Below, piece by piece: positions 15,442 through 16,252 of a stretch of 64,000 nucleotides of DNA (position 1 is the stretch's first letter; every line of letters starts with the position of its first letter). This stretch comes from the human T2T-CHM13v2.0 reference genome, Homo sapiens, in NCBI RefSeq assembly GCF_009914755.1, contig NC_060943.1. The stretch is one strand, 5' to 3'. The position numbers and the translations under genes are program-made. The notes under the pieces are model-generated. The model saw only the letters and a program-made list of their open reading frames with translations, searched no databases and was not told where the DNA came from.

Positions 15442-15614
15442 GTAAAAATAAGTCTGACTGTGGGAAGCCATCTGTGTAAATAACAACCTGTGTGGTCAGG
15501 GAAGAGACATACACTTGGGATGTTAGTTGGAAATCTCCATTCACAGCAGAGAAAAGGTGTGTGATTTATAAGGAAGATAAATACTCTGCATAAGCTACCC
15601 AGTGAGCTTCACCT

Positions 15615-16252
15615 TCACCTTAACATTCCTGGATGGGAACTTGCTATCCTTGAAGTGACAAGAGAACAAATGCCATCCCTCCAAGATCTGGTGTCTGGTC
15701 TACCTGCACGTCCAGGAGTCCCAGCCAAACCCCGGCTCTTCTTTTCACTTTTCTTGCTTTTACCTTCTTCTTGCTCATCAATTTTTACGATGTCTTCCTT
15801 AGGTTCTTCTGTAGTCACCTCTGAAATATCCTTCAAATCTTTTTTCTCTTTCCACAGCACATCTGCAATTCTGCCTTTTCTCATTGACTTTTTCCAAAGC
15901 CTTTTAATGTGTTCTTTTCTTTCCAGCTTAGAGATCACATCTCCATAATCTTTCATGCTACCTTGATCTATGGCTTCCATGGCGTCTGTGGCCTCCAGGG
16001 CTTCTGTGGCCTCCATGGCCTCTATAGCTTGTAAAATGACCTCCTGCTCTGTTTCAGCATAATCCTGGGATTTGACTGTGCTTAGAGAACTCAGTGGTAG
16101 CTCTGGCTCTAAGGTAACATGTTGGGTTTCAACTAGCTCTGATTTCCCGGCCTCTCTTTGTTCACCTGCATCTTCTGAAGGCATCAACATGGAACTAGAC
16201 ATTTCCAATTTTGTCTTTCTGTGCTTCCTGGCAACTCTCAGGTCCTTTTTAA
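15615..16252 (-). pseudogene. WDR87 paralogue last visible exon (K/E-rich), ending at a TGA
   Basis: Acceptor ttctcccaatatctctgcag|TT AAA AAG continues phase 1 into ORF 15615..16208; stop TGA at 15617-15615. Confidence 0.75.

What the first reader, a model, noticed from the sequence alone, without database searches (positions are those of the whole stretch)
15442..15625. Probable single deletion that removed the 3' ends of two convergent genes (KRAB-ZNF finger exon and WDR87-paralogue tail)
Seen: the + strand KRAB-B donor (15441) is followed by only ~165 nt of intron-like sequence, then directly by the - strand WDR87-paralogue coding sequence. No C2H2 exon exists downstream. The paralogue stops at 1342 aa, whereas WDR87 (recalled as ~2900 aa) continues through a very large last exon. 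The meeting point is a tandem hexamer cttcac-cttcac-ctt (15607-15621) that supplies two in-frame TGAs on the - strand. Inference: this is a microhomology- or slippage-type breakpoint of a multi-kb deletion.
Basis: partly seen in the sequence, partly recalled or inferred. Interest (0 to 1): 0.75.

Follow-up and report, generated by a model that had tools for sequence, protein, structure and literature searches.

The report
Human deletion clipped two facing genes
On human chromosome 19 the tail of a large WD-repeat gene (WDR87B), still present in bonobo, monkey and other mammals, is cut off and joined directly to the intron of a facing zinc-finger gene, most likely by one deletion in the human line that probably also took that gene's DNA-binding exon; such losses are a known kind, and this one may have finished off genes that were already decaying.

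Summary
All 6 of 6 named WDR87B orthologues, bonobo included, continue past the point where the human frame stops (15618). The missing part (1,506 residues in mangabey) was not found anywhere in T2T-CHM13. From the other side, a profile of 9 paralogous KRAB-B introns matches the LOC644554 intron only to 15620, while 8 of the 9 paralogues run further. The two halves therefore meet at 15618-15620, with no filler and no Alu or L1. The loss is at least 4.5 kb and likely postdates the human-Pan split. Three corrections. (1) The tandem hexamer looks mostly inherited from the intron, not made by slippage; at most 2-4 nt of microhomology is possible. (2) The 1,342-aa length needs a 2-nt frameshift at codon 833 read through; the native frame stops after 844 aa. 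(3) That a finger exon lay in the deleted piece is inferred, not seen. Both genes carry other lesions, so the deletion need not be what killed them. Verdict: new member of a known kind (human-specific exonic deletion). It was not found in the main-text searches; catalogue supplements were unreadable.

The parts
8716..9597 (+). CpG-island promoter and exon 1 of the KRAB gene LOC644554; has a 70%-identical sister copy about 27 kb upstream
11759..11841 (+). exon holding the start codon (11833-11835, Met-Ala-His), as in the orangutan and horse proteins
14152..14268 (+). KRAB-A exon (Pfam KRAB, E 1e-23); the dinucleotide before it reads GG instead of AG, and the RefSeq transcript skips it
   Evidence: annotation
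15346..15441 (+). KRAB-B exon with intact donor
15442..15620 (+). surviving 5' stub of the KRAB-B-to-finger intron; homology to paralogous introns ends at 15620
15607..15621 (+). CTTCAC x2.5 tandem; first two units likely intron-derived, last part is WDR87B Leu-Arg codons
15618..15620 (.). deletion junction; zone where both homologies overlap (candidate microhomology of 2-4 nt, unproven)
15615..16252 (-). truncated last coding exon of WDR87BP: 212 codons kept, then a chance TGA at 15617-15615
15257..15614 (-). new 3' untranslated tail read through the junction into the antisense of the KRAB gene; AATAAA at 15280-15275, 18 nt before the RefSeq end
   Evidence: annotation NR_040015
16604..16875 (-). 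WDR87BP coding exon 4, canonical splice sites
20588..23428 (-). WDR87BP large WD40 exon, canonical splice sites, one 2-nt frameshift near 21206; annotated apart as LOC728853
24882..25049 (-). WDR87BP coding exon 2
28432..28554 (-). WDR87BP first coding exon
17707..18173 (+). substitute last exon of LOC644554, from a pogo/Tigger-type DNA transposon remnant (Pfam CENP-B_N) inside a WDR87BP intron
   Evidence: family name Tigger recalled

Best explanation
The KRAB gene's intron stub and the cut last exon of WDR87B are joined at 15618-15620, likely by a single deletion of at least 4.5 kb (probably 10-20 kb) on the human line after the split from Pan, which likely also removed the KRAB gene's zinc-finger exon. 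Shown: both homologies end at one point without filler; the WDR87B tail is present in bonobo and other mammals and was not found in T2T-CHM13. Inferred: the two genes faced each other tail to tail; a double-strand break was repaired by non-homologous or microhomology-mediated end joining (0-4 nt overlap, no repeat pair at the junction, so not homologous recombination); the finger exon lay in between. Afterwards each transcript took a new 3' end: WDR87BP reads through to a cryptic AATAAA, and LOC644554 splices to a transposon-derived exon. My odds: a deletion junction here about 0.93; on the human line about 0.9; finger exon in the same piece about 0.7.
For: 6 of 6 named orthologues continue with Asp-Leu directly after the last human residue, by 69 to 1,506 residues. 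An unnamed 2,806-aa relative spans both sides and matches the mangabey C-terminus at 71%. Three searches of the human genome with the tail found only the paralogue WDR87, at 32-69% identity. The intron profile ends at 15620, model position 237 of 372; in leave-one-out, 8 of 9 paralogues run to positions 291-381, and the ninth stops at an Alu. No finger exon downstream. Horse and donkey relatives with the same start exon and KRAB carry finger arrays. A curated RefSeq transcript crosses the junction (annotation), which argues against an assembly error.
Against: No ape or monkey DNA was read: orthology, gene order and deletion size rest on proteins and human paralogues. Only one Pan protein was seen (cluster of 5 members). 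The orangutan KRAB model ends in an Alu-like tail, not in fingers, and no primate finger-bearing orthologue was found (only 20 and 13 candidates scored). The horse finger array best matches the upstream sister gene LOC100128948 (83%), so it does not prove that LOC644554 had its own. One search used a stricter first look. Profile ends are fuzzy (envelope to 15636).
Confidence: 0.65

Rival explanations
1. The human-line deletion is real but took only the WDR87B tail and intron DNA; the KRAB gene had lost its finger exon earlier, or was a partial duplicate that never had one.
For: The orangutan model splices KRAB-B to an Alu-like exon and shares a Tyr-to-Cys change in KRAB-A with human. The upstream sister gene has a promoter and finger exon but no detectable KRAB exons, so this pair has been losing pieces separately. 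No primate finger-bearing orthologue was found.
Against: That orangutan tail has no match in the human window, which fits its lying in the deleted piece. The orangutan record is a partial isoform. The protein searches scored few candidates. Both tandem copies in horse and donkey have fingers.
Confidence: 0.23
2. The junction comes from a more complex rearrangement (inversion or transposition with loss), and the two genes were not direct neighbours before.
For: The region holds old tandem duplicates (WDR87/WDR87B at 70% DNA identity; sister KRAB promoters). Gene order in apes was not read.
Against: No displaced copy of the WDR87B tail was found in the genome. The join is clean, without filler.
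Confidence: 0.06
3. The deletion is a polymorphism or particular to CHM13 (or an assembly error), not fixed in humans.
For: Only one human assembly was searched.
Against: The curated transcript NR_040015 crosses the junction and ends 18 nt after an AATAAA (annotation). The gene is named a pseudogene.
Confidence: 0.05
4. No deletion: a naturally short WDR87B beside a natural KRAB-only gene.
For: KRAB-only genes exist (recalled).
Against: 6 of 6 orthologues continue at this residue, and the intron homology breaks at the same point.
Confidence: 0.01

Closest known systems
Fixed human-specific exonic deletions (hDels, fhSV deletions, hCONDELs; SIGLEC13, CLECM4 and CMAHP losses)
   Same: Sequence kept in apes and other mammals, absent from the human reference, with coding exons removed. 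PMC7488140 (passages) cites 5,892 fixed human deletions and 61 exonic ones. PMC3759715 (section 5) reports 40 putative gene losses since the chimpanzee split, 42 of its 86 being unannotated genes.
   Different: Here one event likely clips two convergent genes. Fixation in humans was not tested. Whether those catalogues already list it could not be seen.
KRAB zinc-finger genes lost in humans (Nowick et al. 2011, PMC3126818)
   Same: The abstract and passages report ten KZNF genes lost in humans by deletion or pseudogenization.
   Different: ZNF573 and ZNF607 are not named in its main text (0 hits). Its tables of lost loci were not seen, so overlap is unknown.
WDR87 (human paralogue, about 61 kb downstream)
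   Same: Same exon plan, WD40 N-terminus, very large last exon, 55% identity over the N-terminal part to the stoat WDR87B.
   Different: WDR87 is annotated as protein coding, with its 1,899-codon last frame open; WDR87BP is cut after 212 codons of that exon.
End-joining deletions (NHEJ, microhomology-mediated end joining)
   Same: Unique-sequence junction, 0-4 nt overlap, no Alu or L1 pair.
   Different: The overlap cannot be measured without the ancestral flanks.

Membership tests
Human-specific deletion (hDel) | Sequence present in Pan and outgroups | tested here: met
   Bonobo, mangabey, stoat, hippo, pika and jerboa proteins all continue; protein level only
Human-specific deletion (hDel) | Sequence absent from the human genome | tested here: met
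   Only the paralogue WDR87 matches, in one assembly
Human-specific deletion (hDel) | Fixed in human populations | not testable with these tools
   No population data; a RefSeq transcript crossing the junction is indirect support
Human-specific deletion (hDel) | Collinear flanks in ape genomes | not testable with these tools
   No ape DNA is held
Microhomology-mediated deletion | Short identity shared by both ancestral breakpoints | tested here: inconclusive
   Homologies overlap at 15618-15620, within the fuzz of the profile end
Replication-slippage product | Tandem repeat created at the junction | tested here: not met
   Paralogous introns carry a degenerate double hexamer at this place (12 of 14 bases shared with the ZNF573 intron); a templated copy of one unit is not fully excluded
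Repeat-mediated (NAHR) deletion | Chimeric Alu, L1 or duplicate at the junction | tested here: not met
   Both sides are unique gene sequence up to the join
KRAB zinc-finger gene | KRAB-A and KRAB-B exons | tested here: met
   the KRAB-A acceptor is damaged
KRAB zinc-finger gene | Downstream C2H2 array exon | tested here: not met
   None in the window or 38 kb beyond; the human locus is a remnant
Gene loss caused by this deletion | Gene intact in the human-Pan ancestor | tested here: inconclusive
   Human remnant has one other lesion in 4,026 nt and no excess of changes, but the bonobo model shifts frame about 50 codons past the junction

The most novel reading that the evidence does not exclude
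One human-line deletion was itself the knockout of two working genes: a roughly 2,800-residue WD40 protein conserved across placental mammals (WDR87B, sister of the sperm-tail candidate WDR87) and a KRAB zinc-finger repressor. This would be an undescribed double gene loss, testable in chimpanzee cells and sperm.
Probability: 0.15. Interest if true: 0.68.

Novelty: new member of a known kind. Interest (0 to 1): 0.42.

Why it matters
Human-specific losses of coding exons are few (61 exonic deletions in the catalogue cited by PMC7488140) and bear on the 'less is more' idea of human evolution. This one removes more than half of a gene kept in other mammals, and probably a transcription factor's DNA-binding exon, in one step. 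It also shows how both remnants gained new overlapping antisense 3' ends, which explains two 'lncRNA/pseudogene' annotations. Its weight depends on whether the genes still worked at the time. The bonobo frameshift and the shared KRAB change suggest they may not have.

Tried and rejected
Horse tandem pair as proof of synteny: rejected. The spacer shared with human (4934-5155) is an old dispersed repeat (40 matches), and the two horse KRAB cassettes are nearly identical to each other, so the horse duplication may be separate or converted. LOC728533 as the sister gene's KRAB exons: rejected; it reads as a processed pseudogene of another gene (IST1-like, name recalled). KRAB exons for the upstream sister gene: none found. 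ESM Atlas: no usable hit. Pfam: no family for the truncated exon or the mangabey protein. Dating the codon-833 frameshift: inconclusive; one unnamed record at 85-89% identity is in frame there but is itself a fragment, and one unnamed 91-aa record reads the shifted frame. Literature: ten full-text searches. WDR87 gave 91 papers, 40 listed, none on this by title; with 'human-specific deletion' 0 (16); LOC644554 4 (22); LOC100631378 3 (23); WDR87B 1 (43); 'WD repeat domain 87' with pseudogene 0 (56); some searches gave general papers. All were seen as listings only, except passages of PMC7488140, PMC3126818 and PMC3759715. Kronenberg 2018 and McLean 2011 are not held. The supplements of PMC7140787 and PMC3759715 were unreadable. 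The paper reader closed before the supplements of Fair 2025 (PMC12727812), Nowick 2011 or the bonobo genome paper could be seen.

Full report
Observation. No C2H2 array lies in the window or in 38 kb downstream. One correction: the five WDR87BP coding exons have canonical splice sites, but a 2-nt frameshift at codon 833 stops the native frame after 844 aa; 1,342 aa is reached only with X at that break.

The WDR87B side. A search with the truncated exon returned 6 proteins among 1,852 candidates of 371-2,000 aa: bonobo, sooty mangabey, stoat, hippopotamus, pika and jerboa. All 6 align up to the last human residue and go on with Asp-Leu, by 69, 1,506, 613, 536, 337 and 688 residues. The length cap of that search excluded full-length proteins, so these counts are lower bounds. 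A second library gave an unnamed 2,806-aa relative that spans the N-terminus, the junction (residue 1,283) and a C-terminus 71% identical to the mangabey's. Searches of T2T-CHM13 with the whole mangabey protein (stricter first look), the bonobo tail and a 377-aa unique part of the mangabey tail found only the paralogue WDR87, at 32-69% identity. The truncated exon itself has one match in the genome. So the tail was lost, not moved. Because bonobo keeps it, the loss likely postdates the human-Pan split. WDR87B homology ends at 15618: the next ancestral codon is Asp, and the human codon differs at its first base.

The KRAB side. LOC644554 has a start exon (11759-11841), a KRAB-A exon (14152-14268; Pfam E 1e-23) whose acceptor reads GG, and KRAB-B. 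An orangutan model splices these three in frame. I built a profile from the KRAB-B donor regions of 9 human paralogues, chosen from the 24 loci fetched, without LOC644554. It aligns the human intron at 104 bits and ends at 15620, model position 237 of 372. In leave-one-out, 8 of 9 paralogues run to positions 291-381; the ninth (within the annotated ZNF607 span) stops at 216, where an Alu is inserted. The intron is therefore cut at the same place as the WDR87B exon. The two homologies meet at 15618-15620, with no filler and no repeat element.

Breakpoint mechanism. With unique sequence on both sides, recombination between repeats is excluded, and end joining is the likely route (inference). The overlap of 2-4 nt could be microhomology but lies within the fuzz of a profile end. 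The double hexamer is probably not a slippage product: the paralogue in the ZNF573 span has a degenerate form sharing 12 of 14 bases, and the profile consensus holds the first unit. The third, partial unit is the WDR87B Leu-Arg codons. A templated copy of one unit at the join stays possible (my estimate, 1 in 4).

Size. At least 4,518 nt, from 1,506 mangabey codons, if the tail is one exon as in WDR87 (1,899-codon frame). In the ZNF607 span KRAB-B and the finger exon lie about 8 kb apart, so 10-20 kb is a fair guess.

Was there a finger exon? This is inferred. Horse and donkey proteins with the same start exon and KRAB carry finger arrays, in two tandem copies. But the first horse array matches best (83%) the human pseudogene LOC100128948, about 19 kb upstream of KRAB-A, and the second has no close human match (best 61-68%). 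Human has an old tandem pair: an upstream sister with a 70%-identical promoter and a finger exon but no detectable KRAB exons, and LOC644554 with KRAB exons but no fingers. A full duplicate that later lost its fingers is the simplest reading. The orangutan model, however, ends in an Alu-like tail, and no primate finger-bearing orthologue turned up among 20 and 13 candidates. That tail has no match in the human window.

Were the genes alive? For: the 4,026 nt of WDR87BP coding sequence that remain hold one lesion. With assumed (recalled) neutral rates of 0.17-0.51 lesions per million years, one or none has probability 0.13-0.66 after 7 Myr, 0.001-0.19 after 18 and at most 0.035 after 30. Human private changes at otherwise invariant columns (41 of 501) resemble stoat (29 of 489) and hippo (37 of 497). 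The mangabey frame is open for 1,699 aa. Against: the bonobo model follows the mangabey for about 50 residues past the junction and then leaves it and stops, which reads as a frameshift in an A-run, real or an assembly error. The primate models seen are all fragments. Human and orangutan share a Tyr-to-Cys change in KRAB-A. So WDR87B died recently, but the order of lesions is open.

After the deletion. The RefSeq WDR87BP transcript reads through the junction and ends 18 nt after an AATAAA at 15280-15275. LOC644554 splices KRAB-B to an exon from a DNA-transposon remnant (Pfam CENP-B_N). The two transcripts now overlap in antisense.

Known or new. Human-specific exonic deletions are a catalogued kind (PMC7488140, passages; PMC3759715, section 5), as are KRAB gene losses in humans (PMC3126818, abstract and passages). 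None of ten main-text searches returned a paper on this deletion (listings only). The genome-wide catalogues keep their lists in supplements that I could not see, and a deletion of this size is likely listed there as coordinates. The gene is already annotated as a pseudogene. A role of WDR87 in sperm is recalled, backed here only by titles.

Verdict. Observation confirmed; interpretation partly supported and sharpened to a likely human-line event. New member of a known kind; interest 0.42.

Noticed in passing
window 29042-35070 (+), intron of WDR87BP: Full-length L1 with a target-site duplication of about 15 nt, an open ORF2 frame (1,284 codons stop to stop; Pfam endonuclease and RT) and an ORF1 interrupted near its start. 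The 3' end suggests a young L1PA subfamily (diagnostic recalled). It lies about 490 nt upstream of the first coding exon.
   Followed up: partly
G000:C19 40591823-40592693 and 40604500-40605600 (window -18177..-17307 and about -5500..-4400): Upstream sister KRAB zinc-finger gene: promoter copy (CpG o/e 0.70) and finger exon LOC100128948 (83% to a horse array, with a disrupted start), but no detectable KRAB exons. It is the mirror image of LOC644554's loss.
   Followed up: partly
window -16710..-15303 (L010): LOC728533 reads as a processed pseudogene (IST1-like, name recalled) inserted just after the sister promoter.
   Followed up: no
window 14150-14151 and 14266-14275: The KRAB-A acceptor reads GG, and the end of the exon lacks the usual last codons before the donor, possibly a small deletion; the orangutan model differs here too.
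   Followed up: partly
window 20588-23428 (-): The RefSeq WDR87BP transcript skips this 2.8-kb WD40 exon although its splice sites are canonical. The exon is annotated as a separate pseudogene, LOC728853, but belongs to the same gene.
   Followed up: yes
window 15967-16028: 9-nt coding repeat, 5 overlapping copies (Glu-Ala-x units), in the last WDR87BP exon.
   Followed up: no
P0010, P0011: The horse and donkey 'zinc finger protein 30' models fuse two tandem genes with nearly identical KRAB cassettes but diverged finger arrays.
   Followed up: partly
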